Shown: positions 11,376 to 55,376 of the stretch, one piece after another
Position numbering within the stretch: the first letter of the stretch is position 1
Layout of the letters: each line of letters begins with the position of its first letter
Source of the DNA: Nemertoderma westbladi
Taxonomy: Eukaryota > Animalia > Xenacoelomorpha
Reading direction: 5' to 3'
Length of the DNA: 60,820 bases
NCBI GenBank assembly: GCA_032718475.1
Contig: JAUCBJ010000506.1
Span: 1-60,820 of the forward strand
Notes under the pieces: model-generated
Seen by the model: only the letters and a program-made list of their open reading frames with translations
Database searches by the model: none
Told to the model about the DNA's origin: nothing
Program-made: the position numbers and the translations under genes

Positions 11376-12172
11376 TTTGTGCTGTGTAAATGGCTTTAGG
11401 CCCTAGGTTTGGGTCAGTTGGTCTCCTTACCGGGTATGGGTTCTGGGTTAGCTAGTGTTATCAAAAATACTAGAGTTAAATGGCCATCATACGCATCAAT
11501 TATATTTAATTTACAAGTTTACATATGCATCAAAAACGCAAACTTCATTTTTATTTTGATAAAAGAACAAAACTCTCAAACAGCTCAAATCTCAAATGAT
11601 TGGGACAATCAGTTTGTTTTATTCATTCAGAGATATCGATCCTGAGGAGCATTATTATAATGGATTACTATAAGATGAGGCAATATATGTAACTCTTTTA
11701 TTGGGGGTGATCTTCCTTTAAGTTTATACATAACAACCCCCTGTTAGTCAGTATGTCGTTAACATCAATTATCATAATACTGGATGACATCCTGAACAAT
11801 ATTTCAGAATTTACTTGTATTACCTTATTTATTAGTTACTAACCAATAGCTACAACAGTATCCCATATGAGAGACATGAAATCAGCAACACTAAGACACT
11901 GCAAGTAAATTGTTGTGGAATTCTGGGGTTGCATTCGACGCATTGTGAGAAATGAAAGTAAGTTTGTAATTGTGCCAACAACTGCCAAAACGAACATGCC
12001 AGTTGATCCTGTAAGAAAATAGGATAGTAATTGTGACTATTGCTGCCATAGAATTTATTGCTGGTATTTCATAATGCAAAATAATATGATTGCAATTTTA
12101 ATCAAAATTATTTTATTTATAACATAATCGGAATGTTTTGTAGATATACTATCAAAATCATCACCCAAAATA

Positions 12173-24370: not shown

Positions 24371-24394
24371 AAGGCAGCTGCAGTAACAGCGGCA

Positions 24395-27300
24395 ATGGCC
24401 GAAGTGGAAGCAGAAGGAAAGGCAGCGGCGGCAGAAGCAGAAGTAGAAAGAAAGGCAGCGGCGGCAGAAGCAGAAGCAGAAAGAAAAGCAGCAAAGGCAG
24501 TGGCAGAAGCAGAACGGAGAGCCTCTGAGGAGACTACCCAACTGGAGTTGGAAAATCTGCAAGAGACGCAAGACAACATAAATAAACAGTTAACTGCTAG
24601 TCACATGCAGATGATGAGAAGATCTACTCCCAAACGCCAGGGATATACATCATCGGAGGAAAGCGAAACCACCGATCCTGAAGGCGGAGGAAATAGATCT
24701 CGTCTAAGCAGGCGTAGAAAAACATCTTACCGTCACAAATTGCCTGATTTGCCCCCAGCTGTTAGAAGACAACTAGCTAGCACCGACTTAAGTAGTATAG
24801 AACCTACAGACCAAATTATTAAGGTCAAAAAACTCCCTACTATAGTTGATGAGCCTGAAATAATTAGGCCTGTCGTTCCCAAAGTCACTCCTGTGCTAGA
24901 GACCCCTGTACTTCCAGAGCTTAACTCTAAGTTCCCTTTACACAGTACTACACTGCCTGTACCCGGTAGAACAGTCCATGAGAATATCCCTGTCCTGGAA
25001 GCTGAGAGAGAAATCAAAGATTTGTCTCCCGTCGTCCCGCGTCAGCCCGCTACAATGTTGGCGACTCCCGCTTCGGCGGTCGAGTGGGTAGAGGAGGGAC
25101 GGCGGGGGATGAATCTCCTGCTTGGACAGATGCAGGAGACTGTCCACCAACTTAAGGGAACAGTAAGGGAAGGTAGGGCCGAATTGCAAGAAGTGCAGCA
25201 AAGTATCGCGCTAGAACGCGACAAATTAGTCAATATCCAAAAAGGGATACCAATACCCCCTGTAAAATTGTGTCAACCTGTTAGGTCTGAAGTATTACAT
25301 GCGCAAGGTGTGGAGCCTACACGCATCTATACTGCTAGTGAAGTAGAAACTCCTATAGCAAACCCTATTAAGGGTGATTATAGACCTGTTGTTAATGATA
25401 TTCCTTATAGACCTGATAATGATCCGAGAAATTTATATACCGATAATTCGATATTAAATAACACGATGGCCCAAGAAAGCTTTACGCGTCAGATGGCTAG
25501 AACAGAAGCCCGCCAAGCGGTCAAAGTGGGAGAGATCGTCAAATTCAATGGAGATGAGATGAAATGGTTACCTTTCAACGAATATTACAAAGACAGCATA
25601 CAGAACTATGTGCTATCTAACGGAGAGAAACTTAGGTTCCTCATCAAGTGCTTGGAAGGACCTCCCAAGTTAATGGCGTTAAAGTTTATTGGACATCCAG
25701 AAGGATTAAGACAAGTTTGGGATACATTAAACATCAGGTATGGTAACAAGGATAACATAGCTAAGTATTTGTATGCAAAATTAGTAGCCCCCCGAAACTT
25801 CCTTAGTAGCGGGATTATAGAGTTTTCCGATGAGATTCAGGAGATCTGTAGACAATTGGACTGGTTAGGTAAGTCTCATGAATATCAGAGTTCCATGGTT
25901 ATTGGAGCCGTAGTCTCTACTTTACCAAAGGGTGGAGTATGTACACGCTGGGACAAGAAAGTGTTGTACATGAATGAACAACAACGACGAAGCCCTACCA
26001 TGGCTGATCTCATGTCCTTCTTAGATGGTGAGGTAAAACTACAACTCATCAAGCAGTCCAGAGAGAAAACATCGGAAAATAAGGTAAGTGAGAAACCCGC
26101 TTCTAGGAGAAGAGTAACACCGGTGTGTTACACTGACGACGGCGAAAGCCAAGCTTCTCAAGAAGAGGACAGCGGGAAAGACACTGATCGATCTTACTAT
26201 GTTGGCAAAACCTCAAAAGACGTAAGTAAATACAAAGCTCGAACCAACGATAGGAGAGAACAGGTTGCCAAGACCCCTCCTCAGTCCCCTAACAGAATGC
26301 ACGTAAGAAAGCCTGAACAAAGAACGAGAGTGCATCAAGTTACCCAAGGTAAAGTGAGTAACATAAAACCTAACTGTGCGCTGTGCGACGGTACCCACCG
26401 TTTGAGTGCGTGTGCTGAATTTCTAAAGAAATCCCTTGTAGACAGACGTGCAGTCGTATGGGATAAGCGGTTATGCTATAATTGCCTCAGACCAGGACAC
26501 CAACGGCGAACCTGTTACTCCGACGTAAAGTGTGCAAAGTGTAGCGCGAAACATCACATCTTGTTACACAGTGAGTTCGACCGAGACAACCCGAGTCAGG
26601 TAAGTGAGCCCGAACTACATGTCCAATTCAGTGATGTAAACGACACTGATCAAGAATCTGAGATGGAAGGATTCTATACTGACGAATTCTCCGACGCCAA
26701 CGAATCATGTTATCTAATCAATACCGCAGTGTATCGAGCACTTACTCATGAAAAGGACACCAACAATGAGTTTTCCCCAACTACTTTTGCCAGACAACCA
26801 TCTTGGAAAGCTCCAACTTCCAACGTAGGAATCAGAGAATTTCCTGTAGTGCAGGTAAGAGTTCACGGTCCTAACAAAAGTTACATAGTGAACGCACTCC
26901 TTGACTCCGGCAGCACAGGAACATTCATCGATCAAGAACTAGCCGAAGATATCTTTGCTGGACAACCCAAATTCTGGACTAAATTGAATATGTCAGGAAT
27001 TATGCAGGTTTGGAAATCTACCCTAATGGCAGATTACTATGTAGGTGTGTTGTCCACCCCCCAGGATAAATTAGGAGCACAAGGTATAAGGTCGGTAAAA
27101 ATGGTGGCTATAAAGAACTTCGCTACTACTCAGGCAGACCTTTATAATTGGGACGAGGATGAGAGCATCCAACATCTTAAGATACCTCGATTCCAGACAG
27201 ATTATCCTGGAGTGCAAATACTCATCGGCCAAAACGCGCATGAGGCGCTCGAAACATTGGAGAAACGGCCTGCTCAACCACAGCCACTGCAAACCTATGC

Positions 27301-30300
27301 GGTAAGAACTAGAGTAGGTTGGTACTTTACTGGCCCTTCCCGCAGGACTCTCGAAGAGAGAATGCCACAAGAACGAATATACCGAGTAAACGATTGGGAA
27401 GTGGAGAGCAGTGAGGTGGACGAACTAACTGAGGAAACACCATACTCCTCAGATAATGACGACATCTACCAACTCTTCGATGAAGAGAACACAATCGACC
27501 TACTTACAGAAAACCAAACTTGGAAAAATCAGGTGAACCTATGTCAACTGATTCGCCCATCGGAACCCATCGCTTACAATGACGAACTAAACGATGAGAT
27601 AGAGCGCTACAACGCTAGAACTCGGGACGAACTAGCTGTACGATTCTTTACTCAAGAACTGGTAGAGCCCAATTCATACGATAAGGCCCTATCGATAGAA
27701 GAAGAAAGAGCCAAGCAAATCCAGGAAACAACTACACGTTTTTTAAAGGACCAAGGTAGATATGAAATCGGCCTACCATTTCGAAAACGAGAACCTAGAT
27801 TTATAAATAACAGACCCTTGGCAGAGAAAAGAATCGCTCAATTACATCGACGCCTTACGGCTAATGCTTCAGTTAAAGAAATGTACCAAACTCAGCTGAA
27901 GAAATTTATAACAAAGGGATACGCGGAGCGAGTACCGGAAGGAACACCAGTGACTGAGAGAACGTATTACTTAACACATCATTACGTTCCCAAACCCGGT
28001 AAACCCCACGAAGTACGAGTCGTATTCGATGGCTCCGCCCTATATATGGGCCAATCCCTCAATTCCGAGTTGTTACCAGGACCCAACTTACTCCAATCTT
28101 TGTTGGGAATACTTTTAAGATTAAGACAATATTCCATCGCGTTCGCCTCCGATATAGAAGGAATGTTCTTACAAGTCAAGGCGCTGGATAGAGATAGAGA
28201 CAGCCTGAGATTTCTGTGGTGGCCTGAAGGAGACCTCAATCAGAAACCGGTAGAGTACTGGATGACCATCCAGGCTTTTGGAATCATATCAAGCGCTTCC
28301 AACGCCTGCTCCGTGGTGCGAACCACTGCGAATGACAATCGAGACTCCTTCTCAAAAGAGGTGATAGACAACATCAAATGGAATATATACATGGACGACA
28401 ATTTAAGGTCCCTTCCATCAGTAGAAGAAGCCATAGATGTCGCGAAAGGAACGGTAGAGTGTTTGAAAAGAGGTGGATTTCGACTGACGAAATTCACCAG
28501 CAACTCCCGTGAGTTTCTGGAAGCGATACCGGTAGAAGACCGAGGAGCGAAAGACCTAGACTTAATAAAGGACGATCTTCCTGAAACCAAGACGCTTGGC
28601 TTGAAGTGGGACACTGAAAGAGACATCCTGTTTTTTCAGTTAAAACAGCGAGATAACCCAGTTCGGACCAAACGGATTTGTTTAAGTATCCTGAGCACTT
28701 ATTTCGACCCATTGGGATTTATAAGCCCAGTTATATTGATTGCTCGGAGTTTAGTACAACAAATGTGGCTTGAAAACCACTCATGGGACGATCCGCTTAA
28801 GGGAAAGAAATGGATGAAATGGGAAGATTCTCTACCTGCCATCGAGAACTTTATAATTTCCCGTGCATATTTTGGCCATGTTCTTCCTACGCATTCCTAT
28901 CAACTCCATGTGTTTGGAGACGCCAGCGACATGGGAATAGGTATAGTAGCATATCTGCGAGTCGAAACTCCGGATGGAATCAAAGTTGCCTTGGTTACCT
29001 CTAAGGCATTGATTAACAACAAGTTAAAGGTTCCTCGAGCGGAGTTAAAGGCGGCTTTATACGCTACAGCCATCGGCCGGAACGTAACAGAACAAATCGA
29101 CTATCCACTGGAGAAAACGGTTTATTGGACCGACGCTTTACTCGTGTTGGAGTATCTAACCAATGAAGTCTGTCAGTTCAGCGTTTTTGTTACTAACAGG
29201 GTAGCTATTATTCTTAGTCGCACAAAGATAGATCAATGGAGACATTGCCCTGGTACGATTAATCCAGCCGATATCGCCTCCAGGGGAGCAACTCCACAGG
29301 AACTGATAGATACTCCAGACTGGTTGGGTGGACCCGACTTCCTGAGCAAGGAAGAGGATGAATGGCCTCCTCACCTTACTACGGCGGAGATTAGACAAGC
29401 CAAGGGAGCGGAGACAGTCAAACCTAAAACCCGGGCGAGTAAATCGAAGTTATTTAAACCGACTATCGATCTATCTGTATTACATACTTCCGGAAACGAT
29501 GCTTCGGATCCACAATCCCTTGCCACAAATAAGTCTGTTGTGGAAATTAGAGATAGAGATTGGAAATCTGGAATACCAGACGTCTCGCAAGGAATCTCAC
29601 CCATGCTGCAGAGAGCAATGCATCACTACAGTTCCTGGAATCGGCTCTGTAAAGCCGTCACATATTTAAGGCGATGTTTTCATCATCACTACTCCAGGAC
29701 GAAGACCATTAGTGATGCCGCTCCATTGACATCTGCGCAAGTTCATATTATTAAAAATTTACCCAAATATAAGACATCTGACCGTTTTCTAAAGGAGAAA
29801 ATTAGTCACCAGGAGCATGAAGAAACCAATAAGCAGATACTGAGACTCCTGCAATGCTATGAGGATTCCGAAAAGTATTTCCTGTTGTTGAGAAATCCGC
29901 AGATGCGCTTAAGGGATCGCTTCTCTAGCACAATGATAGATGGGTTAATACGTGTTGGAGGAAGGCTCACCAATGCGCCATTATCCTTTGACACTAAATT
30001 CCCCATACTCATTAGAAATCTTGAAGTACAAATCAAGATGATTGTAGATGTTCACAGCAAACTTTATCATGCTGGTAGAGAACGAGTTCTTAGCGAAATT
30101 CGAACTCGCTATTATTTTGATAAACCCCGTAGAGCTCTGAACCAAGTTCTTAGGAACTGCATACCCTGTAGGAAAGCATTCAGTAGGCCTTTAACCCAGC
30201 GAGAGGCAGAATTACCTAGGGAACGAGTAAGCTTCTATGAACCACCTTTTACTAATACTGGTGTAGATTTATTTGGCTCTATTGAAGTATATCGTGCTCG

Positions 30301-31264
30301 GACTATAGTCAAGAGATGGTGTGTCATCTTCGTATGCATGACTTGTAGAGCCATCCATCTCGATATGGTGAACGATCTATCTACCAACAGCTTCGTCTTA
30401 AGTTTACGCCGACAGATCGCTCGCTTCGGGACGAGTAATACCATGAGATCGGACAAGGGAACGAACTTCATTGGTGCCAACAACGAAATACAGGCTTACG
30501 TGAAGGACTGGAACCAAAGACAGGTGGACGACCAGCTAAGGATAACAGCGTCTAGCTGGACCTTCAACGCCGCCGACGCCCCTTGGTGGGGAGGAAGTTG
30601 GGAGAGATTAATTCGAAGTGTCAAAACCGCATTTCACTTTATAGTGCCATGCCGCGCGTATCTCACCGACGAACTTTTGCGGATGTTAATGGAGGAAATA
30701 GCTGCCTATCTCAACGAGAGACCGCTTATGCCAGTCTCATCGAGTCCCGATTCCCTGGAAGCGCTAACACCCGCGCACTTCCTACTGAAGAAACCTGTAG
30801 CCATGCTCCCACGATCGGAGATTGCCGACGGAGACGAATACTGCCGTCGAACTTGGCAACTTATGCAGTTGCTATCCCGTCGTTTCGCTGACCATTTCGA
30901 GAAACATTATCTGCTCACGCTACACCTTCGAACTAAGTGGTTTGCGCAGCAAGAAAACGTCAGCGCCGGAGATATGGTGCTTATTGTAGATCCAGACCTC
31001 CCACGTAAACGGTGGCAGACAGGTCGTATCATCGAGACTCACATCTCGGATGATGGTTTAGTACGCTCGGTAGAACTCGTCGTCATGCGGCGTAACTTCA
31101 AGAAGCCAGGCATAATCTTTGAGACGCAACAACTCAATCGCCCAGTTGGTCGTTTATGTTTACTTGAAAGAGACAGAGAACTCTCTGGAAACTATGGAAG
31201 GCAAGACACTCTTCCCACGACCACCTCCCTAATTCCTCAAACATCTAGGGACTCCCCAACGTGA
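24395..31264 (+). CDS. BEL/Pao gag-pol polyprotein (2289 aa)
   Basis: Gag core FNGD..W..F; three Cys/His knuckles (CALCDGTHRLSAC, CYNCLRPGHQRRTC, CAKCSAKHHILLH); protease LLDSGS; RT RVVFDGS, SDIEGMF, YMDD; RNase H LHVFGDAS; integrase HHCC, TGVDLFG, SDKGTNF, GGSWERL; C-terminal KW...GD.VL...W..GRI. Confidence 0.97.
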   Translation: MAEVEAEGKAAAAEAEVERKAAAAEAEAERKAAKAVAEAERRASEETTQLELENLQETQDNINKQLTASHMQMMRRSTPKRQGYTSSEESETTDPEGGGNRSRLSRRRKTSYRHKLPDLPPAVRRQLASTDLSSIEPTDQIIKVKKLPTIVDEPEIIRPVVPKVTPVLETPVLPELNSKFPLHSTTLPVPGRTVHENIPVLEAEREIKDLSPVVPRQPATMLATPASAVEWVEEGRRGMNLLLGQMQETVHQLKGTVREGRAELQEVQQSIALERDKLVNIQKGIPIPPVKLCQPVRSEVLHAQGVEPTRIYTASEVETPIANPIKGDYRPVVNDIPYRPDNDPRNLYTDNSILNNTMAQESFTRQMARTEARQAVKVGEIVKFNGDEMKWLPFNEYYKDSIQNYVLSNGEKLRFLIKCLEGPPKLMALKFIGHPEGLRQVWDTLNIRYGNKDNIAKYLYAKLVAPRNFLSSGIIEFSDEIQEICRQLDWLGKSHEYQSSMVIGAVVSTLPKGGVCTRWDKKVLYMNEQQRRSPTMADLMSFLDGEVKLQLIKQSREKTSENKVSEKPASRRRVTPVCYTDDGESQASQEEDSGKDTDRSYYVGKTSKDVSKYKARTNDRREQVAKTPPQSPNRMHVRKPEQRTRVHQVTQGKVSNIKPNCALCDGTHRLSACAEFLKKSLVDRRAVVWDKRLCYNCLRPGHQRRTCYSDVKCAKCSAKHHILLHSEFDRDNPSQVSEPELHVQFSDVNDTDQESEMEGFYTDEFSDANESCYLINTAVYRALTHEKDTNNEFSPTTFARQPSWKAPTSNVGIREFPVVQVRVHGPNKSYIVNALLDSGSTGTFIDQELAEDIFAGQPKFWTKLNMSGIMQVWKSTLMADYYVGVLSTPQDKLGAQGIRSVKMVAIKNFATTQADLYNWDEDESIQHLKIPRFQTDYPGVQILIGQNAHEALETLEKRPAQPQPLQTYAVRTRVGWYFTGPSRRTLEERMPQERIYRVNDWEVESSEVDELTEETPYSSDNDDIYQLFDEENTIDLLTENQTWKNQVNLCQLIRPSEPIAYNDELNDEIERYNARTRDELAVRFFTQELVEPNSYDKALSIEEERAKQIQETTTRFLKDQGRYEIGLPFRKREPRFINNRPLAEKRIAQLHRRLTANASVKEMYQTQLKKFITKGYAERVPEGTPVTERTYYLTHHYVPKPGKPHEVRVVFDGSALYMGQSLNSELLPGPNLLQSLLGILLRLRQYSIAFASDIEGMFLQVKALDRDRDSLRFLWWPEGDLNQKPVEYWMTIQAFGIISSASNACSVVRTTANDNRDSFSKEVIDNIKWNIYMDDNLRSLPSVEEAIDVAKGTVECLKRGGFRLTKFTSNSREFLEAIPVEDRGAKDLDLIKDDLPETKTLGLKWDTERDILFFQLKQRDNPVRTKRICLSILSTYFDPLGFISPVILIARSLVQQMWLENHSWDDPLKGKKWMKWEDSLPAIENFIISRAYFGHVLPTHSYQLHVFGDASDMGIGIVAYLRVETPDGIKVALVTSKALINNKLKVPRAELKAALYATAIGRNVTEQIDYPLEKTVYWTDALLVLEYLTNEVCQFSVFVTNRVAIILSRTKIDQWRHCPGTINPADIASRGATPQELIDTPDWLGGPDFLSKEEDEWPPHLTTAEIRQAKGAETVKPKTRASKSKLFKPTIDLSVLHTSGNDASDPQSLATNKSVVEIRDRDWKSGIPDVSQGISPMLQRAMHHYSSWNRLCKAVTYLRRCFHHHYSRTKTISDAAPLTSAQVHIIKNLPKYKTSDRFLKEKISHQEHEETNKQILRLLQCYEDSEKYFLLLRNPQMRLRDRFSSTMIDGLIRVGGRLTNAPLSFDTKFPILIRNLEVQIKMIVDVHSKLYHAGRERVLSEIRTRYYFDKPRRALNQVLRNCIPCRKAFSRPLTQREAELPRERVSFYEPPFTNTGVDLFGSIEVYRARTIVKRWCVIFVCMTCRAIHLDMVNDLSTNSFVLSLRRQIARFGTSNTMRSDKGTNFIGANNEIQAYVKDWNQRQVDDQLRITASSWTFNAADAPWWGGSWERLIRSVKTAFHFIVPCRAYLTDELLRMLMEEIAAYLNERPLMPVSSSPDSLEALTPAHFLLKKPVAMLPRSEIADGDEYCRRTWQLMQLLSRRFADHFEKHYLLTLHLRTKWFAQQENVSAGDMVLIVDPDLPRKRWQTGRIIETHISDDGLVRSVELVVMRRNFKKPGIIFETQQLNRPVGRLCLLERDRELSGNYGRQDTLPTTTSLIPQTSRDSPT

Positions 31265-36919: not shown

Positions 36920-39346
36920 ATGTATTGTTTTCGGCTGGAACCCAGTTCAAGAAGCGAACTGGAAAGCTATGGACTCATAGTGGACCCAGTGGTCACAAGT
37001 CCCAGATAGACCATATTCTGTTTCGTAGGAAATACAGGAGCTCTATGCAAGACTGTAATGCATTTACACTTCGACCCTTCTCCAGTGATCACTGCCTTAT
37101 TGTGGCCTAGGTAAGACTTAGTCTGCGTGCTAGCAGAACAACGAAATCTGTCTTGCCACGGCATGACTGGTCTTCTCTGTTGCAACAGCCACGTGTGAGA
37201 TCCAGCTTCACACTACAGCTGAGCAACAGGTATGAGGCTCTTGCCTCTGAGGCGGCAGATCAGTGTGAGGGCTATACTGCCTTTACAGAAGCAGTTAAGT
37301 TAGCAGCTGCAGAAACAATTCCTGTATACCCTCAAAACAGGAAAAGGGCCCCCTGGACTGACAACAAAATTCAGAAGTACCGAAATGACCTTCATAAGGC
37401 ACAGAAAGAGTCCCGACTCAAACAGACTACATCGGCCAAGAATGCAGTTAAGGCTGCATCTAGATCCCTGAACAGGCAGTACTCTGTTAATCTACAGGAG
37501 CTAATAAACCAACAGGTTGATGCCATCAATGATGCTGACGACAGCAGGCAATCATCCCAGGCATGGAAATCGATCAACTTGCTTACTGGGCGGAAAAGCC
37601 AACCAACCACCAAGGTTAAGGCTGAATCACCAGCCGATGGCCTCAATGGTTGGAAAGCCCACTTTGAAAAGCTCCTCAATAATGACAGGGTATTGCCTGA
37701 TAACTTTATAGAAGTAAAAGTGTCTGAGTCTGTACTCCCAGATATTCCCATTGGCGATATCTCCTTTGCAGAAGTGAAGGCTGCTGCAAAGAGCATTAAG
37801 ACCAATCGTGCCAGTGGAGTAGATGGTGTTCCCCCTGAGGTCTTTAAAATACCTGAGTGTTTAAAGCTCATCTATCCCATCATAGTAGACATGTACCGAA
37901 CAACAAGAGTCCCACAAGAAATGAAAACAAATAAGTTGGTGCCAGTTCCCAAGAAGGGCAACCTAACACTCTATGGTTCTTTTCGGGGAATCTCATTGAT
38001 CTCGATTGCTGCAAAGCTATACAATAGAACTCTATTAAAATCGCATCAGGGATCCCATTGAGAGACTTCTCCGTGGAAATCAGAATGGGTTCTGTAAAGG
38101 TCATGGGACCATGGAGCCCATTTTGGCACGTAGAAGGATAAGTAATTAGAAGAAAGACAAGCATCTGGCTGTTATCTTTGTTGACTTCTTCAAGGCCTTT
38201 GATTCAGACTCTCGCTCACGTATGTTCATCATACTTTCATTATATGGGATTCCTGATTAAATTATTGCAGCAATCAGATAAGTATACGATGGTTCGACAA
38301 CATTTGTGTCTACTGTTGACGGTGACACAGAACCATTTGAAGTGTTATGGGGCGTCCTCCAGGGAGACACACTTGCACCATTCTTGTTCATAATTGTTGT
38401 TGACTATGTTCTACGCATGTCCTTAGATCATCATAATGATGATGGGGTGATGATAACTCCACCTACTGGCTCCAGAAGTCGAGGAAATCCTGCCAAGTCC
38501 CTAACTGATCTAGACTTTGCTGATGACTTTGGAGTACTCTCAGAATCACTAGAGGGAGCCCAGCGGCTCCTCAGCTCATTAGAACATGCTGCTTCTAGTG
38601 TCGGTCTTTTTATTAACTCCAGAAAGACCAACATTTTGACAGTTAACTTTGAAAGTCCTCAGCAAGTCTCTGATCGGATGAGCATAAGCTCAAAGGATGG
38701 TTTGCTTGAGCATGTGGACGACTTCTGTTACCTGGGATCATGGATCCGGAAGTCAGGTGAGGACCTTCGAATACGTAAGGGAAAGGAATGGGCAGCCTTG
38801 AATAGGCTTTCCAGGATTTGGAAGTCACCGAGAATTAATCGGAAACTTAAGGTCCGATTATTTAGAGCAGCAGTAGTTCCAGTACTCCTCTACGGGAGTC
38901 CATGCTGGGCTCTAACTGCCGAGGACACCAAATCTCTGGATGGCACATTCACAAGAATGCTACGCCGGGTTCATTGTGTCAAGTACAATGCACACATCTC
39001 CAACCAGACACTATATAACATTGGAGGTGTCTCATTGGTTCCCCCAAGCTTGACACTAGAACAAAATCGCCTCCGCTTTGCAGGACATTGCTTTCGCCGT
39101 GAGGACCAGCCAGTGCATAATCTTGTACTTTGGCAGCCTCATGGAGTGAATAAGCATGGTGGACAGCCCATGACTTTCTTAAGACGCATCTTAAAGGACA
39201 CTGGATTTGAAGCAAATGTCATGGGTGATGAGTTGTGGTGGTTCAATTTTGCAATGCAGCATGCCGATCCTAGTAGTAGTACGGACTATTTATGCAATAT
39301 AGTCACTTCAAAGGGAAAAATCATGGCAGCAAATATAAGTTTATAG
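36920..39346 (+). mobile_element. Decayed RTE-clade LINE (APE C-terminus + RT), with stops and frameshifts
   Basis: LWTH...SQIDHIL...SDH; LSNRYEAL; VPKKGNL...FRGISL; GVLQGDTLAPFLF; LDFADD; FCYLGS; VLLYGS..W; LRFAGHC. Confidence 0.92.
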
Positions 39347-41024
39347 CAAGCAAAAATTTGCCCCTATAGGCCTACTATTGTCTCTCAATCATTTTTTATT
39401 TATTTCTATCTATTATCTATATCTATATCTATTTATTTTTCATTTTTTTATTCGAGACCACATTTTTTAAACCAGCATGTGCATTTTCATCATATTTTCA
39501 TTTTCGGCCATTTTAAGTTTGTTTTAATTTTCTATATCTGATAATTGGCAATTTTGTAAAAAAAAATAGAAATAGAAAAAAAGTGAAAAATCCCATGTTT
39601 TTTTCTAACTTATAATTGGAAAATATGGGGAAATATTTTGTAATCAAGAAAACTGGCCGAAATTTATTTAAGCTTATGAAATTGCCTTTCAAATAAATAA
39701 AAAATTACAAAAAACGATAGTATTTTTCGTGTGAAAAAATGTCATTCAGAGATAATTGCTTTCAAAGTTCAAACCATCCCGCATAAAATTGCCTGTATGG
39801 GGTCTGGTTGGTTAATAATAAATTAAATAGTTGGAAGGAGGCATAGCATACCACGACCACCGAGCTAAAATGATATTTACAGGGGTTTTCGGGGTCGCTG
39901 ATTTAATTTCAGATGTCTGTTTTAATATTTGGTGGAATCTAGTCTGCCTGTCGGGCGGTTGTCTGTCTTACATTTTGACAGACAGATTGTCAGACAGATA
40001 TTCCACGATGTACGATAACTCGGTGAACTAAAAGGGGTCTCTCTAAGCGGTTTTCGGGTCTGCAATCCCCATTAAATTCTGGAGAAGTAGATGCAAAAAA
40101 ATATGAAATTGTATTGGGGGGGGGGGGGGGGGGGGGGTATTTATTACTATTTATAATAACAGTATTTATTATATAAATATTTAATTAAATATTTATTAAA
40201 TTGTTACGATTCTTAAAATTAAATTTTTTCAAAAATACTACCACTACTTGGCTACGTCACGTTTAGGCAACTCAAATTCGTGTTGTGGCAACTGAACAAT
40301 TACGTATCACCAAGTGCTATAGTTGTGTTTCGGCAACTCGTAGTTGCATTTCGGCGAACTGAAGTTGCGATTCGGCAACTAGGTATCGTATCTGTATCTG
40401 TAATGTATCTGTGACTGCACTCATTATATATATTATTAATATTAATTAATAATAATTAATAATAATTATGTATATTAATTATTATGTAAGTGTATTTTTA
40501 GTAATTACAGGTAGGCCCTAGGTAGGTATATTAATGTCATGTAGTATTATATAATTGTGTATCAATGTGTAACAGGCAGTTGACTTGACTTGTAGTTAAT
40601 TTAAATAAGTGTGGTAGGATGGCAAAAGGCAACTAAATAGCAGGATGTTACAACCATTTACTAATAATGTTGACTTACCAAGAAAGTATGCTATCTTGTA
40701 GTTAGTTAAATGTTGGGCACATTCAATCATTGAACTATCATCAGTGCAATTTATATCCATTAAATTATTATTATACCCGATATTATAAAAAATTTAAATA
40801 TATATATATAAGATAATAAATATTATTTTATACAGGACTTCAGATGAACAAGACAAACGACTTGAAGAATAAAAATGTGAAGATGCGAAAAAAAACGATG
40901 GGAATCTAACCTGTGTCTATAGATAATTGAATTTGTGGATGAAGTGCAAAAGTCTAAAAAGTTTATTAAATAAATTGGAGTTGTGCTGTTAATGCAACTG
41001 CAATTAATGATGTAATATAATGGT

Positions 41025-41566
41025 TTTTATTCTTAAATTGTTACTTTTTCGCTCGAATTTACCACAAAATCTGGAGAAAAAGTTGCACTTTTTTCCTCTA
41101 GGAAAAAAGTTACCCATAGGATTGCATTGATTTTAATTTTTTTCCCGATGGAAAAATTAAAATAAAATATTTTAGGTGGAATTTCTTAAATTTTATTAAA
41201 TCTGTTGAAAGAGCATCGACGTAAGAAAAGGTTTACACGTAATTTGAGTAAAATCCATTCACATACTCAAAAAAGTTATTGCAAATTTAGTGTCTGCGCG
41301 GCGTACTTCAAAACGGAACTCAATATCCAATATTGGTTTATGTTGTTAAGCGGCTCTGTAGTTACATAATAAATATTCGAGAACACTAAATTATTTAACA
41401 TTGAGTAAGACAGCATCAGGAGTTGATGAGTACAGTAATTTGAATTGCATTAACTATGGAAGCAATACATTAAAATACTATAGTTCAATTTATATTGTAA
41501 CACTATATCGCTGTACGTTTATGTTGAAGAATTAAGCAACAAAAAAGTACCAATTTAAGAATAAAA
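41025..41566. mobile_element. ~540-bp MITE with 25-bp TIRs
   Basis: TTTTATTCTTAAATTGTTACTTTTT and AAAAAGTACCAATTTAAGAATAAAA; the same terminus recurs at about 54833 and 60283. Confidence 0.6.
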
Positions 41567-41720
41567 TTACGTATTACATGGGAAGATAAACGTAGAACAA
41601 TTTTATTTCAATATTCTCTCGACCCTTTATTAACCTCGCTGACGCTTGGTAAATAATAAACGCTTCACTAAGGAATAGTGAAAAAAAGTTCTACTTTTTT
41701 ACCCATGTAATAAGTAATTA
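41565..41720. mobile_element. Small palindromic MITE
   Basis: AATTACGTATTACATGGG...CCCATGTAATAAGTAATT arms, with further inner pairing (GTAGAAC/GTTCTAC). Confidence 0.65.
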
Positions 41721-42060
41721 TTGTTCAGAAAAAGGGAAAAATACGTCACCGGGGGTTGAACCAGGATAAGTTTCGGCCTATCAGGCCTTATCAGTAGTGC
41801 TAATCAGTTCAGCCACTTGAACCTGACAATTGCTCTCCCACCTAATCTACTTCTATTGAATACGCAGTCTTAATTTGCATATATCCTATCTCTAACAGCG
41901 GAGCCTACGGGCTCAAGTATGTTTGAGTGAAACAGGAGGGAAGTACAAATAAATAAATATTGAGCTCGAGTATTGATGCCACGTGATATTACTTAAATAA
42001 ATAGGAGTTGAGCTGTTAATGCAACTGTGATTAATGATGTAATATAATGGTTTTTGTTCA
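41721..42060 (-). mobile_element. Inverted, decayed copy of the tRNA-box/hammerhead element
   Basis: Reverse complement aligns with 42085-42435; core CTGATAA-GGCC-TGATA-GGCC-GAAAC, with stem III and the stem I 3' strand deleted. Confidence 0.85.
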
Positions 42061-42447
42061 GCTTTCTCATTTTTTTCCATTTTCTGTACAAAAACCATTA
42101 TATTATACATCATTAATCACAGTTGCATTAACAGCTCAACTCCAATTTATTTAATTAATATCACCTGGCAGCAATACTCGAGCTGAATATTTATTTATTT
42201 GTACTTCAGCTCCTGTTTCACTCAAACATACTTGAGGCCGGTAGGTCCGCCGTTAGAGATAGGATGCAACTGCCCGTTCAATAGAATGGGATTAGGTGGG
42301 TGTGTGAGTGTCAGGGGCTAGTGGCTGAGCTGGTTAGCGCTACTGATGAGGCCTGTTACGCCGAAACGTACGTATAGCGCTGGTTCAACCCCCGGTGACG
42401 TGCTTTCTCATTTTTTTCCCCATTTTCTGAACAAAAACCATTATATT
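42061..42447 (+). mobile_element. ~340-bp non-autonomous retroelement (SINE/retrozyme-like) with a terminal direct repeat, tRNA-like A/B boxes and a hammerhead ribozyme
   Basis: 42061-42103 is repeated at 42402-42447; A box GTGGCTGAGCTGG (42321-42333); B box GGTTCAACCCC (42382-42392); T7 run at 42411-42417. Confidence 0.8.
42336..42381 (+). ncRNA. Minimal type I hammerhead ribozyme
   Basis: Stem I AGCGCTA/TAGCGCT; core CTGATGA (42343-42349); stem II GGC/GCC; GAAA (42363-42366); short stem III with palindromic ACGTACGT; cleavage triplet GTA ending at 42374. Confidence 0.9.
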
Positions 42448-42933
42448 GCTTCATAAAAACTTAATCACTATACTCATGCTCAATGTCCATATTTTATAAT
42501 TAGACTCTCTTATTTTAAATCTCAAACCTGTTATTGTTATATAATTATTTGTGAATGACATCCTGTTAAATGTTTTCTTGAATTCCAATAATAAATTGCA
42601 AATGTAATATAAATTTATATAAATACGATAATAGTTGTCAATTAAGTTCACTTATATATATTTTACTATATTATTATACAACTGCTACTAGGTGAAGCAT
42701 GCTCAGACTGGAAATTAGATCCTTCCCGGCTTCCCGATTCTCCATAGTTGTCGCAATTTCGATTCTCCTAAGTCCTGTAGGCCTATCCCTTTCAAGTTGG
42801 TCTACTATATGCTATAGCCAATAGTTCACGGCAATGCCTTGTGTTGGTTTCCCAGATAAGTAGATCTGGTATGACATTGTTTTAACTCGCCAGCAGTGCC
42901 CACTGAATTGCAATCTGCGTTAATGAAGAGTGG

Positions 42934-44901
42934 TTGATACATAAAATTGCTTCAAAGATATCGCCAACATTAAACCTTCAGGTTAAGATGGAAAGGTTAC
43001 AGGAAGAAGTTGAAAATGATATTTTAGCTGACCAAACAAAGTACGAGATGCAGCTAGCGGACACCCGTTCAATGAAACATCTCTTCAAATATTTCAAAAG
43101 CCTACGGAGGTCTTGTTCACTGCCACCAGTAGTACAATACGAGAATCGTACGGCATCCACTCATGAGGATCAGGCTAATCTATTTAACGAGTTCTTCCAT
43201 TCCGTTTTTAAATCCCCGCGAATACCTACTAGCGATATAAAACCACCATTTAACGACACAAACTCTGAAAGCTTGAACACGACACACGACTACGACGTGT
43301 CAGTTGACACAGTGGAGAATATACTTACGTCTCTAGATGCTACGAAATCTCGTGGACCAGACAATATTCCACCTTCATTATTTAAATCCCTCGCAAAAGT
43401 ACTAGCACCCTCAATGTCATTCCTATTCGGGAGGCTGAAAAAAAAAAACCACTTCCCCGTAGCATGGAAGCATGCACTAATAAATCCTCAACATAAAAAA
43501 GGTAGTAGAATCAAGGTAATCTTATACCGGCCAATATCTCTCTTAGCGATTCCTGGAAAAGTATTTGAGCGTTGCATCTTTATCCCCATCTACGAACAAG
43601 TACGTAGTAGGTTACACGACGCACAACATGGATTTAGGAAGTCAAGATCAACGATCACACAATTACTTACATTTCTAGACAATGTCTACAAGGGTACGGA
43701 TAATGGCCAATTGACAGTAGAAGTAATATACTTAGATTTCCAGAAAGCGTTCGACTCTGTCAGCCACGAATCCGTTCTGCGAAAATTATGGATAATGGGG
43801 GTCCGCGGAAATCTCTGGTATATCCTCCGGAGCTACCTAGCAGGAAGAACACAGTCAGTAAAAGTCGGAAACGCGAAGTCAACTCCCCGATCTGTCGACA
43901 GTGGCATGGCTCAGGGGTCCCTATTGGGACCACTATTCTTTGTTGTTGAGAGCAATGATCTCCCAGAAGTTTGTCATGTCAGCATACCATTTCTCCTCGC
44001 AGACGATTGCAAATTATTATCAGTATCACATGTCGATTCCATCATCAACACACAATTAGATATTGACCGACTTGTGACATGGGGTCTCGAGGCTGGACTA
44101 GATTTTAATGAACCGAAATGCAAGCAAATAGTCTTCAAAGGCGACATAGAAGCTCGGTCATTGTACTCAAGGACTATATCTCGAGTCGATACAGAGAAGG
44201 ATTTAGGAATAACCATAACATCAAATTTATCATGGACCGCCCACATTAAGGACAAATGCAGTAAAGCAAATAGAACATTATACCTGATCCGAAGAAGCAG
44301 TTCTAGCTAAACCTCTATATCCAAGCTAAACCTCTATAAATCCATGGTATTGCCAATCTTAACCTATGGGTCGCCTTGTTGGTTTGCCAACAAGACGGAC
44401 GCACACAAACTTGAGTCCATCCAGCGGAGAGCAACAATCTGGATTATTGGTAATGACGATCACACCTACAAGGAGAGACTCATAATATTAAACATTCTAC
44501 CGATCTCATTATACTTACAATTATCCGACCAACTAACCTTGTCAAAGATAATAAATAATAAATACGACATTGACTGGTCGCCACATCTAAAGATGAAGCA
44601 AACAAACCTCAGAAGAAACACTCGTAGCGCTAACCGACCCTCGTTTGATCTCACACACCCCCTAAAGTGCATATCAAAGCAAAATTTCTGGTTTCGCGCA
44701 CCACAATTGGCAAATCAGCTTCCCCTTCAGACAGAGTATTTTAATCACGTTGGTTTAAAGGTGCGCCTATTGAATCTGTTCTGGGCCCACTTTCACCAAC
44801 ATTACGATGTTGACATCACTTGCAGTTGGAAAATTAACTGTGACTGTACACAGATGAACTGCAACCTCCGAATATTGAACCTTAACAACTTACTCACTTG
44901 A
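42934..44901 (+). mobile_element. 5'-truncated CR1-group LINE ORF2 (RT), split by an in-frame TAA at 44308-44310
   Basis: KSRGPDNIP, YRPISLL, QHGFR, YLDFQKAFDSVSH, QGSLLGPL, LADD, EKDLGI; then YKSMVLPILTYGSPCW, LESIQRRAT, YKERL in the same frame. Confidence 0.92.
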
Positions 44902-46836: not shown

Positions 46837-46929
46837 CACTAGTTAGAAGACTGTGGCTGCGGTATAGAATAACCTCAATAAAATTAATGCGGTCAATACG
46901 AACCTCTTTCCCGTGCTCTTTGTTTGCAC

Positions 46930-47475
46930 TACGTACAGTATGACATCAGACAGTTTGTAAGTTTGCCCCTGCCTATCTCCCATAATGCCTTCACGCTCAA
47001 CTCAAAACGGTTTTCTATTGTTGCGAGAATTGGTGGCACACCTTTCCGATTCGTTTGAATGGTACCTATTAGTGTAATATTACGAGATTGTAATTCTCGC
47101 AACAATCGTATGGATGTATAGAGCCGATCACACGTAATATTTCGTCCACCAAGTTTCTTTCTCTTTGAAGCAAAATCAACAAGTTTGATTACGACAGTAT
47201 CGTTCCCTTCCACATAGTGTGGTGCAACACGTTGTTGGGGTTGACTAAGTTGGGTCTCGGGTTCTTGGGCTAAGGTAGTTTTGACACGTTTCGCTGATTT
47301 GGTTTGGCCCAGTTGAGTTAGGGTTCGTTTGTCGGGTTTATTTGCCTGCTTGAGTGCAATCGGTTTACCGCAATATGGATCGGACGCGTATGTGAATGGT
47401 ATTCTAGCGTCATTCAATGATCGATTGTTTATACCATACCGCGCAGGTTTCGTCTTTATATATGTCTTTAAAGAT
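46930..47475 (-). pseudogene. piggyBac-type transposase central (DDD) fragment
   Basis: FKDIYKDE/YIKTKPARYGI region followed by PYCGKP, RNITCDRLYTS and GTIQTNRKGVP. Confidence 0.85.
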
Positions 47476-50400
47476 GATATAGCATGCCTAAAACATTTTG
47501 TGAATAAGTGTAATAATGAAACACAAATAATTGAAATTGAAAAGAAATAAAGAGGTTTAACTACTTTATATACTTATTAATATACTCACACTCGGTTACT
47601 GCAGTCAATAGCAAACACTGGCCAGTGCCCAGTCCCCATGATAGTGTACCTGTTCAGAGAGAGGTGCTTTCTTTCCTTCTATGGAATATGGGGCCTTAAC
47701 CCACCACATTATGCACCACATTGCTAAGCTAACTTGATCAAGTATTTTCATGTGGTCGCAAATATCTTTCAACTAAACTTGATAAAGTCTTATTTATGTA
47801 GGGATGGCATATACAATAACTTAAATAAATATAATAAATCCAGTATAGAAGTGAGAAAAGGTATATTATTTCATAAACAAATTAATTATCAGTAATATAC
47901 CGGCAATAGAAACAAGATCGTTATTATTTCTATATTACAAATCGTGATGAAATTTATTGTATGCAATAAAGAATAGTCTTTCTGTGTTTTTAATTAATTT
48001 TTTATTTTATTTATTTATTTGATTCGCTTTTAATGTCACAGTTTTTATAGTTTAATTTTAAAGTGTGAACTAATAATGTAATTTTAATCGAGTTCAGGAT
48101 ATTAAATGAAAGTAAATACACTTCTTGTTTACTAATAATGTAAATTAATACATTTTTTGTTTATAACCGCGCCATTTACATGAATTATGGTTTATTAGGA
48201 AACCATGTAAAACATTATACATTATAAAGGCACAGGTGGAAGGAAGACTAGAGTAGCAGCAGTGCACATAACATAGTTAGCAAGCAGAACCAGCAAGAAA
48301 GCGCCCTTTTAGATGCACAGCCCACCCACCACTCACATATCAGAGTACTTCCCATTGAATGATTGATTGAAATTTTATAACGGTAGTTGGCTAGCTTTGA
48401 TCAGTGCCGCTGTCCCATAGGGCTAATGTTAATATTCTCTCTCTTGGAAAACGATTTTCTGAGTAGATACACTTGGAACCAAATGTACCAATGTGGGTCC
48501 AGGGGAATGGATAATTAAATTCGTACTGTATCACTTCCACACATTGCAGACCAAATGAAACACCAATGACAACTACTCGTCTTACAAAAACGCAGCCATT
48601 ATGGGTTCAGATTACTGCTGTCTAATGCATATAATGCATATGTGCATAATGCTTATATATAATATAATGCATATAATGCATAATGCATATGCATATGTAA
48701 CCTCCGTATCTTCAATTGCCTTTCCCTCTAATGTAAATAAAAATAACGGGTCAATTTACCGCAGGCAAAATCAATTGTCTGACAGGACATTCCTGTCAGA
48801 CAGGAATGACCTGTCTCACAGTTAGAAGCAAAACGTGTGGATTTAATATAGCACTGTATCCCTACCCCCCACCCCCCACCCCTTAATTAACTTCTCTACA
48901 TTCATGAAGGGCCTATGACTTTCGATGGTGTTGCGTTATTTTATATAGCTAATGGTCTGAATGTAGAAACAGCGAAAGTAATATTATATGTTAATAAATT
49001 CACAAAGAAGGACAGGACTGACACGACGGTTTTCAATATCTGTTCGAATGTTTATTCCCTTAGCATTCTCATTGCTGCTTCTATCAGTCTATACTATGTC
49101 AGTGCCATATACCGTAGCAACCAACAACATTCTATAGCCAGGTTGGTGGAAAAGCCGTTCAAAAATAAATCACGGTTGGTTAGATTTCTAAGCGGCGTCA
49201 AGAAGTGTTATGGTTAATAGATACTGCACTGTTGGCGCATCCGGGGTTGGCGGACACCGCGGCTGTCACTCATCCTGGACCTGTCCTGCATTGTTTATTT
49301 GACAAAAGGTAGCGGCAGCCACACACTCTTTAAATCACTTAGATTTAAGTAGGCCTACCTGTCTTCAGTCTGGGTAACAGACGTTTCGGTCTAAGACGTT
49401 TTGGCCTAGGACGTTTCGGCCCAATGAATGAAATGCAAGATTTGCTTGTCGGACGTTTTGGCCCAAAGATTCACTTTACTCCCTTAAATAAGTTATTCAA
49501 TATATTTTTTTTGTAGTTGTTACCATCGTTACTAGAGGAGTTGTCAGTTGGAACTGCTCCACCTGTTTGAAGATCGAAGTTCTACATTATATTTATAAAT
49601 AATAACTAATGTAATATTATTATTATTTATTTATATAAATTTACACCATACTGTAACTTAGAAGAAAGATAACATATGCTGACAAATTAACTTTAGTATT
49701 ATGGATGGGGTTTCTCCCCTAAAAAAAAACATACATATTTTAACATGTGAGTTAATAAATAAAGTACATTAAAATACACCGAATTAAAAATATTACTGTA
49801 TTTTAATGTTAGATTTAAAAATATAATAGATAAGAAATATTCCATTACAGGAGCATTGTTAATAATTATGAGACAGACTGGATGTCATATGGAATGAGAT
49901 AAAATATATGCGTATTAAATTTAAATTTAGATGAAATATATGCGTATTAAAAGGGCCAGAGTGGATGTGAAGTGAAATAAAATATGTATTAATAAAAGCA
50001 TTATACGTCGTTATCTATGGGTATAAATCAAAATCATCTATCATCGAAGATGATAGTAGTTATTGTTTCAACAGGTCATTAAGATATAGCTGCAATACAC
50101 TGTCCAGCTACAATAATTATCAATTGAGTAGTGTTTAAAATTAATGAAGTATCTCCAAAATATATCGATCAGACGAGATTTAAGCCCTAAATGGTTCGTG
50201 AAATTGATTCACTTTGGTAGTACTGTATATTAGTTTCAGATAATTTTTACAGTTGATCCAACATAACAGATAAAATCATTAATTCCAATTTTTCTAATTC
50301 TTTAAAATATTTTTATAAAAATACTATCCTTAAAATCAAATCATTACTACTTATGATACATTAATCAATCGTTGATAACTCAGAACCACCAATACTCTAA

Positions 50401-54426: not shown

Positions 54427-55376
54427 CACCCAGACAGTCTGGCGCCAATGACACTCATAAGGTGACATTGGGTGTCACCCAGACAGTCTGGCGCCAGTCA
54501 GTGGGGTCTGTCTAACTGTCACCAAGCCGGCCAAGACTCTACTACTAATGTAGTTGAAGGGAAGATAGTTTGTCCGTGTTGCTGTTCAGAATTAAAGTCC
54601 AGTATATCAAAAAAGCTGATTGTACATCTCCATAAGAACATTACCTAGTACATTACCCACATTGTAGACGTACTGCCCATGGTTATCGCCAACAAGGGTG
54701 ACCCGACAATCAGCTAACTGATATTGTGCATGTGTGTTTTGTGAAGTTCAATTATTTTATATTATTTTATATAATTAGTTGGCACATTATACTTTCTATT
54801 TAAAGTGTACATACATATAATATATCATTTGTATTCTTAAATTGTTACTTTTTCGCTCAAATATACCCAAAACCCTTTTTTCCTAATCAGGACAATCAAT
54901 GCCTTTGCTGAAGATTAAGAAGTTCCGTGATGTTCCCATGACGATACCTGTGCCCTCTTCCCTTTTTCTTTAGATGCCAACTGTGAGCCGGAAATTTTCA
55001 AGACAAGGGGTAGCACATCAACAGTAACCTTGACTTTTTCTGCTACTGACTCCTTGAAAAGGACCTTGGCCCTTTCCTCTTTGCCAACAGCATATTTAGT
55101 GAGATAGCTGACCATGAGACGCCTGCCTATCACATACTTGTACCTTAGTACAAGAACATGTAAAAGTAAATAGGCATGGGATGGTGGGGACAAAAAAACT
55201 CATCACTACAGGCTGGGTAGTGATATTTCCAGCCCAGAAATTTTGGTGTAATAAACGTTCCCCTTCACCATCCATTGTTGTCAGTCCAAGAGATTCCATG
55301 ATATCCATGGTTTTGTTTGAAAAAATGTTTTTGTGTTCAATGAACACTGCTTCAGAACGTTCTAGGTACTGAGTAT
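54427..55376. repeat. Direct repeat, copy 1 (copy 2 at 59901-60820)
   Basis: Collinear high identity with small indels; offset 5474 at the start and 5444 at the end. Confidence 0.95.

What the first reader, a model, noticed from the sequence alone, without database searches (positions are those of the whole stretch)
42314..42417. Hammerhead ribozyme grafted into the anticodon-arm position of a tRNA-like Pol III cassette
Seen: GGGGCTAGTGGCTGAGCTGGTT (tRNA 5' half, A box), then a complete minimal type I hammerhead (7-bp stem I, CUGAUGA, stem II, GAAA, palindromic ACGUACGU stem III, GUA site), then GGTTCAACCCC (B box) and a T7 run. Known: minimal type I hammerheads with a palindromic stem III are associated with Penelope-like elements and can cleave as dimers; schistosome Sm-alpha repeats combine Pol III boxes with a hammerhead. 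Inference: this is a ~100-nt self-transcribing, self-cleaving tRNA-ribozyme chimera in which cleavage falls between its own promoter boxes. It may be an undescribed SINE/retrozyme family.
Basis: partly seen in the sequence, partly recalled or inferred. Interest (0 to 1): 0.85.

Follow-up and report, generated by a model that had tools for sequence, protein, structure and literature searches.

The report
Hammerhead inside a jumping repeat's promoter
An abundant 341-base non-coding repeat, likely of an animal, carries a hammerhead ribozyme motif between the two boxes of a tRNA-type promoter motif, so it likely makes its own RNA, is predicted to cut itself only in pairs, and would pass on a whole promoter only through a circular or uncut RNA.

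Summary
In detail: A box, complete minimal type I hammerhead, B box and T7 run sit at the stated places, beyond chance. It is not a stand-alone 100-nt gene. It is the cassette of a 341-bp non-coding repeat: 1.14 units here, head-to-head with a decayed inverted copy, with 2,222 matching contigs in one DNA run and head-to-tail joints. All four common family substitutions inside the cassette keep the boxes and stems (P about 0.005-0.02). With the family's majority letters two copies fold into a double hammerhead; this window's copy is predicted to misfold. Best reading: an animal non-LTR retrozyme with its own Pol III promoter, likely cut as a dimer, circularised and copied by a Penelope-type enzyme. 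It differs from schistosome Sm-alpha, where the promoter precedes the ribozyme. Unresolved: a conserved T-run would stop Pol III about 100 nt in, before a second ribozyme. Transcription, cleavage and circles are untested; Dfam and Repbase could not be searched. This scan already noted the same layout twice on other DNA of this genome. Verdict: new variant of a known kind, interest 0.5.

The parts
42061..42401 (+). Copy A, one full 341-bp unit of the repeat (43% GC, no ATG ORF of 40 aa or more on this strand)
   Evidence: 42061-42104 recurs at 42402-42447; GC; ORFs; family cover
42402..42447 (+). Copy A, start of a second unit (46-nt extension, possibly to 42468); holds the T-run
42315..42346 (+). 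tRNA-like 5' half (acceptor 5' strand, D region); overlaps stem I and the first four core letters
   Evidence: 21 of 26 identical without gaps to a viral-collection tRNA-Arg; 18 of 20 to a tRNA-Ile(GAU) head (read); isotype not settled
42322..42333 (+). A-box match
   Evidence: only common variant G42329A keeps the consensus
42336..42381 (+). Minimal type I hammerhead motif: stem I 42336-42342/42375-42381, core 42343-42349 and 42363-42366, stem II 42350-42362, palindromic stem III 42366-42373, predicted cut after 42374
42382..42392 (+). B-box match, 48 nt after the A box
   Evidence: no substitution listed at 5% or more
42392..42407 (+). 3' segment predicted to pair with stem III and the stem I 3' strand (blocking hairpin) when 42370 and 42401 can pair
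   Evidence: prediction only
42411..42417 (+). T7 run, predicted Pol III terminator; the only run longer than four T on this strand of the unit
   Evidence: contigs align through it and continue into the unit start
41720..42061 (-). Copy B, one full unit in inverted orientation, 5' end abutting copy A with one shared base; carries letters of another subfamily
   Evidence: subfamily letters
41752..41815 (-). Decayed cassette of copy B: last G of the A box lost, core G8 changed to A, 7 nt lost across stem III and stem I, B box intact
   Evidence: low family depth over it at 88% likeness
40962..41029 (-). Copy B, start of a second unit (about 67 nt), separated from the rest by another repeat
41030..41719 (.). 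Unrelated high-copy repeat of about 690 bp inserted into the tandem of copy B

Best explanation
The feature is the A-box / hammerhead / B-box cassette of an abundant 341-bp non-coding repeat, likely a non-LTR retrozyme that carries its own Pol III promoter, is predicted to cut itself as a dimer, and is likely copied back into DNA from a circular RNA by a Penelope-type reverse transcriptase. Shown in DNA: the cassette, the 341-bp unit, many copies, head-to-tail joints, partial tandems and an inverted head-to-head pair. Inferred steps: (1) TFIIIC reads the two boxes and Pol III starts just upstream, near 42305-42315. (2) Most such RNAs would stop at the T-run as roughly 100-nt molecules with one hammerhead, which can cut only in pairs through the 8-nt palindrome. 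(3) A transcript that runs through the T-run in a tandem copy (leaky Pol III or read-through Pol II) holds two hammerheads, folds into a double hammerhead and releases a 341-nt unit. (4) The cut lies between the boxes, so the linear unit starts with the B box and ends with the A box; ligation, probably by RtcB, restores the cassette in a circle. (5) A Penelope-type enzyme copies the circle more than once round, giving copies longer than one unit that cross the cut site intact, as here. This locus has one hammerhead per strand, one predicted to misfold and one broken, so it is likely a dead end.
For: Cassette beyond chance. Unit length 341 from the direct repeat in the window, from head-to-tail joints implying 333-341 (tables 5 and 5c) and from a 371-nt contig in run X5 whose ends overlap by 30 letters (table 8). 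Abundance: 2,222, 1,242 and 105 contigs laid in three DNA runs; summed depth 250,000-320,000 over the cassette in X1 against 27-30 for unique flank contigs (rough, not a copy number). Four of four common substitutions in 42322-42392 keep boxes, core and pairing, where 27-39% of possible substitutions would (P 0.005-0.023). With majority letters the double hammerhead is the best fold in trans and in a tandem transcript (pair probabilities 0.71-0.99). Copy A is longer than one unit and spans the cut site, so it cannot come from a cut linear monomer. Partial tandem, inverted 5'-adjacent copy and a short extension match the described layout of Penelope-like insertions (10.1101/2021.04.23.441226, passages); 7 of the 15 listed joints join opposite strands (31 joints not shown). 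RT plus GIY-YIG Penelope elements lie at 761-7127 of the window. Dimer cleavage, RtcB circularisation and a proposed Penelope partner are reported for animal retrozymes (PMC7229834; bioRxiv 10.64898/2026.07.22.740005).
Against: No RNA evidence of any step. The T-run is kept across the family and would stop Pol III 18 nt after the B box (oligo-dT termination: PMC10498592), so Pol III alone would rarely make the multimer. The cassette is not less polymorphic than the rest of the unit by site count (4 sites in 71 nt against about 10 in 240 nt, read); the argument rests on the kind of change, with n = 4, and 5 rows were not shown. One contig holding a third of the X4 depth has four extra letters between stem I and the core (table 4), which would break the standard junction unless other unseen changes compensate. 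The fold is fragile: the window copy, and the letters of the X5 contig, favour a blocking hairpin by 18 and 12 kcal/mol; the majority haplotype was assembled from separate positions. The circle is not unusually self-paired (z -0.97, 55% paired), unlike reported retrozyme circles. Copies A and B carry different subfamily letters (79% overall), so the inverted pair is not a simple single-template product. No target duplication was found and the unit has no match to the window's own Penelope ends.
Confidence: 0.6

Rival explanations
1. The unit is the pseudo-LTR of an autonomous Penelope-like element that captured a tRNA gene, and the locus is a pair of 5'-truncated, ORF-less stumps; the short tandem form is a by-product.
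For: Minimal hammerhead with palindromic stem III is typical of Penelope ends (PMC4209133 passages); partial tandem plus inverted copy; 24 of 57 Xenopus retrozyme families matched known transposons, nearly all Penelope-like. Unchecked notes of this scan describe such ends in other genomes.
Against: The commonest sequence after the T-run leads straight back to the unit start (loose ends in 89 and 77 contigs, joints), and X5 assembles a closed 341-nt cycle. No ORF adjoins either copy and there is no match to the Penelope elements of the window.
Confidence: 0.17
2. One reading: the mobile unit is the roughly 100-nt Pol III RNA itself, a SINE that runs from its start site to the T-run, and the rest of the 341 bp is carried flank.
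For: Spacing is that of a tRNA gene with its terminator. Depth over the cassette is about twice that over 42130-42190, and two long contigs hold a piece spanning only 42307/42310 to 42416/42419 with unaligned DNA upstream (table 8, records 8/14/23 and 15).
Against: Both window copies include the whole 341-bp unit and run past the T-run; head-to-tail joints; a cluster of four differences at 42301-42305 can by itself stop alignments there; a self-cut 100-nt RNA would destroy its own template; no poly-A tail or target duplication seen.
Confidence: 0.1
3. The element is a retrozyme transcribed by read-through Pol II; the tRNA letters are vestiges or act at RNA level, for example as a tRNA-like signal for the RtcB ligase, and are not used as a promoter.
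For: The T-run is a poor design for a Pol III multimer; RtcB circularises retrozyme monomers in vitro; the cut falls where a tRNA intron would be; conservation of the boxes rests on few sites.
Against: The box letters are kept exactly while the D and T stems are not (2 of 4 and 3 of 5 pairs, read from the sequence) and are competed by stem I, which favours a DNA-level promoter over an RNA fold; a terminator at tRNA-gene distance is also kept.
Confidence: 0.13

Closest known systems
Metazoan non-LTR retrozymes (Cervera and de la Pena 2020, PMC7229834; passages, Results parts 1-2 of 3 and Discussion read, supplement not readable. Li, Clavereau and Pollet, bioRxiv 10.64898/2026.07.22.740005; abstract, passages and one Results section read)
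   Same: 150-450-bp non-coding unit, one type I hammerhead per unit, GC under 50%, tandem joints, dimer-type stem III, Penelope elements in the same genome.
   Different: tRNA-type A and B boxes around the ribozyme and a Pol III terminator: 'Pol III' and 'SINE' occur 0 times in the main text of PMC7229834, 'tRNA' and 'promoter' 0 times in the preprint. The circle is not strongly self-paired. No long target duplication found.
Sm-alpha / Sj-alpha SINE-like hammerhead repeats of Schistosoma (seen through passages of PMC6765202, PMC2576457 and PMC2770079; Ferbeyre 1998 and Laha 2000 not seen)
   Same: A and B boxes plus a type I hammerhead in a short, very abundant, often tandem repeat.
   Different: The review describes a promoter followed by the hammerhead, with the promoter left at the 3' end of the cut unit, and tRNAscan-SE calls many Sm-alpha-like copies as whole tRNA-Gln. 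Here the hammerhead lies between the boxes, the cut splits the promoter, and ARAGORN calls no tRNA. The Sm-alpha alignment figure itself was not seen.
Penelope-like element pseudo-LTRs (PMC4209133 and 10.1101/2021.04.23.441226, passages read)
   Same: Minimal hammerhead with short palindromic stem III, predicted dimer activity, partial tandem, inverted 5'-adjacent copy, short extension.
   Different: No ORF attached here; 'tRNA' occurs 0 times in PMC4209133; the studied Penelope promoter overlaps an intron in the terminal repeat.
Helenus TRIMs (Kojima 2024, PMC10886601, passages read)
   Same: Non-autonomous retroelement with tRNA-derived A and B boxes inside its repeat.
   Different: LTR structure with internal part and short target duplications; 'hammerhead' appears only in a reference title.

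Membership tests
Type I hammerhead ribozyme (minimal, dimer type) | Core CUGANGA, GAAA, UH with stems I, II and a short palindromic stem III | tested here: met
   Rfam does not call it
Type I hammerhead ribozyme (minimal, dimer type) | Self-cleavage at the predicted site | not testable with these tools
   folding predictions only; window copy predicted blocked
Metazoan non-LTR retrozyme | 150-450-bp non-coding unit, GC under 50%, one type I hammerhead | tested here: met
   341 bp, 43% GC, no ORF on the sense strand
Metazoan non-LTR retrozyme | Many copies, tandem arrangement | tested here: met
   contig counts and head-to-tail joints; long arrays not seen directly, only partial tandems and a closed assembly cycle
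Metazoan non-LTR retrozyme | Highly self-paired circle | tested here: not met
   circular fold z -0.97 against 100 shuffles, 55% paired, window copy only
Metazoan non-LTR retrozyme | Target duplication longer than 4 bp, when present | tested here: inconclusive
   none evident on reading the flanks; no empty site among the listed joints (290 joints not shown)
Metazoan non-LTR retrozyme | Expressed as linear and circular unit-length RNA | not testable with these tools
   no RNA holder listed
Sm-alpha / Sj-alpha | Pol III A and B boxes plus hammerhead in one short repeat | tested here: met
Sm-alpha / Sj-alpha | Whole promoter (tRNA head) placed before the hammerhead | tested here: not met
   hammerhead lies between the boxes; description
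Sm-alpha / Sj-alpha | Sequence homology to the schistosome families | not testable with these tools
   no sequence held; primary papers not available
Classical tRNA-derived SINE (features recalled) | tRNA head at the 5' end of the copy, then body and A-rich or LINE-like tail | tested here: not met
   boxes lie about 260 nt inside both copies, near their 3' ends; no poly-A tail
Penelope-like element pseudo-LTR | Partial tandem, inverted 5'-adjacent copy, 30-40-bp extension | tested here: met
   in shape: extensions 46 and about 67 nt; the two copies differ in subfamily
Penelope-like element pseudo-LTR | Attached to, or homologous to the end of, an RT-GIY-YIG ORF | tested here: inconclusive
   not at this locus and no match to the window's Penelope; no genome held to search

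The most novel reading that the evidence does not exclude
A self-promoting retrozyme in which the ribozyme is built into its own internal Pol III promoter, so that cutting splits the promoter and only circle formation rebuilds it, and in which the abundant terminated 100-nt RNA serves as a trans partner that pairs through the palindrome and licenses cleavage of single hammerheads in longer transcripts; the ribozyme's 5' arm and CUGA may have arisen from the tRNA's own sequence.
Probability: 0.2. Interest if true: 0.8.

Novelty: new variant of a known kind. Interest (0 to 1): 0.5.

Why it matters
How animal retrozymes get transcribed so heavily is not addressed in the main texts read here; this family offers a compact, directly testable answer (box mutants in a 100-341-nt construct). 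The layout also ties promoter inheritance to RNA circularisation, and the T-run sets up a clean test of trans versus cis dimer cleavage. The promoter-plus-hammerhead combination itself is already known from schistosomes, and this scan has noted the same layout twice in this genome, which limits the surprise.

Tried and rejected
No whole genome is held, so no direct census of copies, flanks or partners. No RNA holder listed; this is no evidence on expression. Run X5 (RNA only by guess, labelled as another organism) holds the unit as one closed 341-nt contig, but it also holds the neighbouring high-copy repeat at similar depth, so it was rejected as evidence for a circular RNA. Pattern scans for core...GAAAC...B box gave 9 viral, 119 metagenome (scan stopped at 39 of 64 parts) and 86 prokaryote loci: 0 of 214 had a strict A box, 2 had weak stems, none matched the unit by blastn; these collections are mostly prokaryotic, so the blank says little about animals. 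ARAGORN on the cassette with the ribozyme cut out in silico gave calls only at relaxed thresholds, in 3 of 4 versions; not taken as proof of isotype. Register test: 46 of 48 viral loci with the cassette's spacing from A box to CTGA are tRNAs, but tRNAs also cluster in two other of ten spacings, the wild-card positions were chosen with tRNA-Arg in mind, and the references are not host tRNAs; kept as a weak hint. Rfam found nothing at gathering scores. The sigma-70 scan is irrelevant to a eukaryote and gave chance-level output. Look-ups of this scan's notes by sequence found no look-alike, so whether the earlier notes concern this same family is not known. Eight paper searches (listings read) showed no description of a hammerhead between an A and a B box; the library lacks most subscription papers, Ferbeyre 1998 and Lunse 2017 were not held, and the unreadable supplement of PMC7229834 may hold retrozyme sequences with this layout.

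Full report
1. Observation. The sequence at 42314-42417 holds, in order, an A-box match (42322-42333), a complete minimal type I hammerhead (stem I 42336-42342 with 42375-42381, core 42343-42349 and 42363-42366, stem II 42350-42362, palindrome 42366-42373, predicted cut after A42374), a B-box match (42382-42392) and seven T (42411-42417). It is the only such hammerhead and the only A+B pair in the window. Of 200 dinucleotide shuffles, 0 gave such a hammerhead and 1 gave an A+B pair. The consensus motifs used are recalled. ARAGORN and Rfam at gathering scores call nothing; the best Rfam hammerhead score is 14.4 bits, E 8.4.

2. Context. The window is full of eukaryotic mobile elements: Penelope-type RT plus GIY-YIG ORFs, LINE RTs, a DDE transposase fragment. 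I infer an invertebrate animal and did not identify it further. The cassette lies inside a longer repeat. Bases 42061-42104 recur at 42402-42447, which gives a 341-bp unit plus a 46-nt start of a second unit (copy A). An inverted copy B runs from 42061 down to 41720, shares one base with the start of A, and continues for about 67 nt at 41029-40962 beyond an unrelated 690-bp repeat that inserted into it. Both 3' ends point outward. Copy B has lost the last G of the A box, core G8 and 7 nt of stems III and I. A and B are 79% identical overall and B carries letters of another subfamily, so they came from different templates or at different times. I found no target duplication by reading the flanks.

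3. The family. No genome is held, so I used assembled contigs of public runs (4 of the 7 listed runs laid). On 42040-42480, three DNA runs gave 2,222, 1,242 and 105 contigs and the fourth gave 1. Summed depth over the cassette in X1 is 250,000-320,000 against 27-30 for unique flank contigs. The tool warns that this is no copy number, but thousands of copies are likely. X1 may be the source sample. After the T-run the commonest continuation returns to the unit start, and four listed joints with their in-between letters imply units of 333-341. Of the 15 joints listed, 7 join opposite strands (31 not shown). X5 holds one 371-nt contig whose ends overlap by 30 letters, a closed 341-nt cycle; X5 also holds the neighbouring repeat, so this shows the cyclic or tandem form and not an RNA.

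4. Conservation. Within 42322-42392 five substitutions are listed at 5% or more (5 rows of the whole table not shown). C42359G is the majority (98-99.7%) and makes stem II five pairs. The other four are G42329A (an A-or-G position of the A box), T42356A (loop II), C42362T (G-C to G-U) and A42370G (U-A to U-G in the dimer). All four are compatible, where 27-39% of possible changes would be (P 0.005-0.023 over six settings). Against: by site count the cassette is no less variable than the rest (4 in 71 nt against about 10 in 240 nt), no two-sided compensatory change was seen, and one contig with a third of the X4 depth has four extra letters between stem I and the core.

5. Folding, all predicted. 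The 104-nt window RNA folds into a non-hammerhead hairpin. With the two majority letters (42359, 42401) stems I and II form with probabilities 0.63-1.0, while monomer stem III stays at 0.02. Two such RNAs fold best as a double hammerhead with an 8-pair stem III, 11 kcal/mol below two monomers. A tandem read-through RNA with majority letters does the same in cis (0.71-0.99), and the window copy does not (0.0). A blocking hairpin wins by 11-18 kcal/mol in the four of seven tested letter sets that include T42401 or G42370, among them the window copy and the X5 letters. The majority set was put together from separate positions. The 341-nt circle is not more stable than shuffles (z -0.97). Stem I uses the letters that would close the D and T stems, so cloverleaf and ribozyme exclude each other; the boxes are better read as DNA promoter elements.

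6. Origin of the tRNA part. The 5' half matches a viral-collection tRNA-Arg at 21 of 26 positions without gaps, with the core's CTGA on the anticodon stem, and a tRNA-Ile(GAU) head at 18 of 20, with CTGA on the anticodon loop after a 4-nt gap. tRNAs occupy three of ten tested spacings, so this is weak. It leaves open that the ribozyme's 5' arm was built from tRNA letters and not simply inserted.

7. Mechanism. Shown: anatomy, abundance, unit, joints. Inferred: Pol III initiation from the boxes; termination at the T-run for most RNAs (oligo-dT signal, PMC10498592 passage); dimer cleavage; release of a 341-nt unit from read-through transcripts of tandem copies; RtcB ligation (shown in vitro for other retrozymes, PMC7229834); copying by a Penelope-type RT (proposed there, and supported in bioRxiv 10.64898/2026.07.22.740005). 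Copy A crosses the cut site and exceeds one unit, which needs a circle, an uncut multimer or DNA-level duplication as source. Because the cut separates the boxes, a linear monomer carries them in the wrong order. The T-run is the main difficulty: it is the only long T tract of the unit, is kept in the family, and lies before any second ribozyme. Confidence 0.6. Rivals: pseudo-LTR stumps of an autonomous Penelope (0.17), Pol II read-through with vestigial or RNA-level tRNA letters (0.13), stand-alone 100-nt SINE (0.10).

8. Comparison. It works like a metazoan non-LTR retrozyme and meets the DNA-level features except the strongly self-paired circle; expression is untested. It shares promoter boxes plus hammerhead with Sm-alpha but fails the order: there the promoter is followed by the hammerhead (PMC6765202 passages; boxes confirmed in PMC2576457 passages; whole-tRNA calls in PMC2770079 passages). 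I did not see the primary Sm-alpha papers or the alignment figure. Eight searches listed no paper on a hammerhead between A and B boxes; Dfam, Repbase, most subscription papers and the supplement of PMC7229834 were out of reach. None of 214 pattern matches in viral, metagenome and prokaryote collections showed the layout.

9. Earlier notes of this scan. Two unreviewed notes on other DNA of this genome describe the same layout (e1-10614364, 369-base units; e1-10653974, three units in 1,028 letters), and several describe a 411-412-base family with the ribozyme behind the tRNA head. They are leads and not support; I could not check whether they share sequence with this family.

10. Verdict. Real, under apparent constraint, and an unusual arrangement of known parts: new variant of a known kind, interest 0.5.

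Noticed in passing
window 761-7462: Tandem of two Penelope-type ORFs (993 and 1020 aa; RT plus C-terminal GIY-YIG) and partial copies, over 99.8% identical, so very young; the second has an 81-bp internal duplication. No standard hammerhead was found in the spacer.
   Followed up: partly
window 41030-41719: Very high-copy non-coding repeat of about 690 bp with an internal inverted segment, inserted into copy B; its first 40 bp also match 54814-54872 and 60264-60322.
   Followed up: partly
window 42709-42900: Another very high-copy short repeat (summed depth about 234,000 in X1) just ahead of a LINE RT frame at 42907-44901; loose ends suggest a trinucleotide tail on the minus strand, possibly a SINE.
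   Followed up: no
window 49350-49430, minus strand: Three imperfect 15-bp repeats resembling the GAAAC-GUC half of a hammerhead, followed by a CUGAAGA; probably a decayed or rearranged hammerhead.
   Followed up: no
window 42341, run X4: One contig with a third of the depth has four extra letters here; they would separate stem I from the core and give the spacing at which CUGA is the anticodon loop of tRNA-Ile(GAU). Unexplained.
   Followed up: no
window 42335-42341 and 42375-42381: The two strands of stem I are also a 7-bp direct repeat, because the sequence is palindromic; stem I could have arisen by a short duplication.
   Followed up: partly
window 42370 and 42401: These two positions mismatch in the majority but pair, by different changes, in the window copy and in the X5 contig, each time favouring a blocking hairpin; chance or a switch.
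   Followed up: partly
window 23180-31264; 37111-39346; 46929-47573; 8436-9120; 12166-12908: A long BEL/Pao-like polyprotein frame (label from reading the motifs, not scanned), a LINE RT remnant, a DDE_Tnp_1_7 transposase fragment and two elements with long inverted arms; together with Penelope they point to a repeat-rich animal genome.
   Followed up: no
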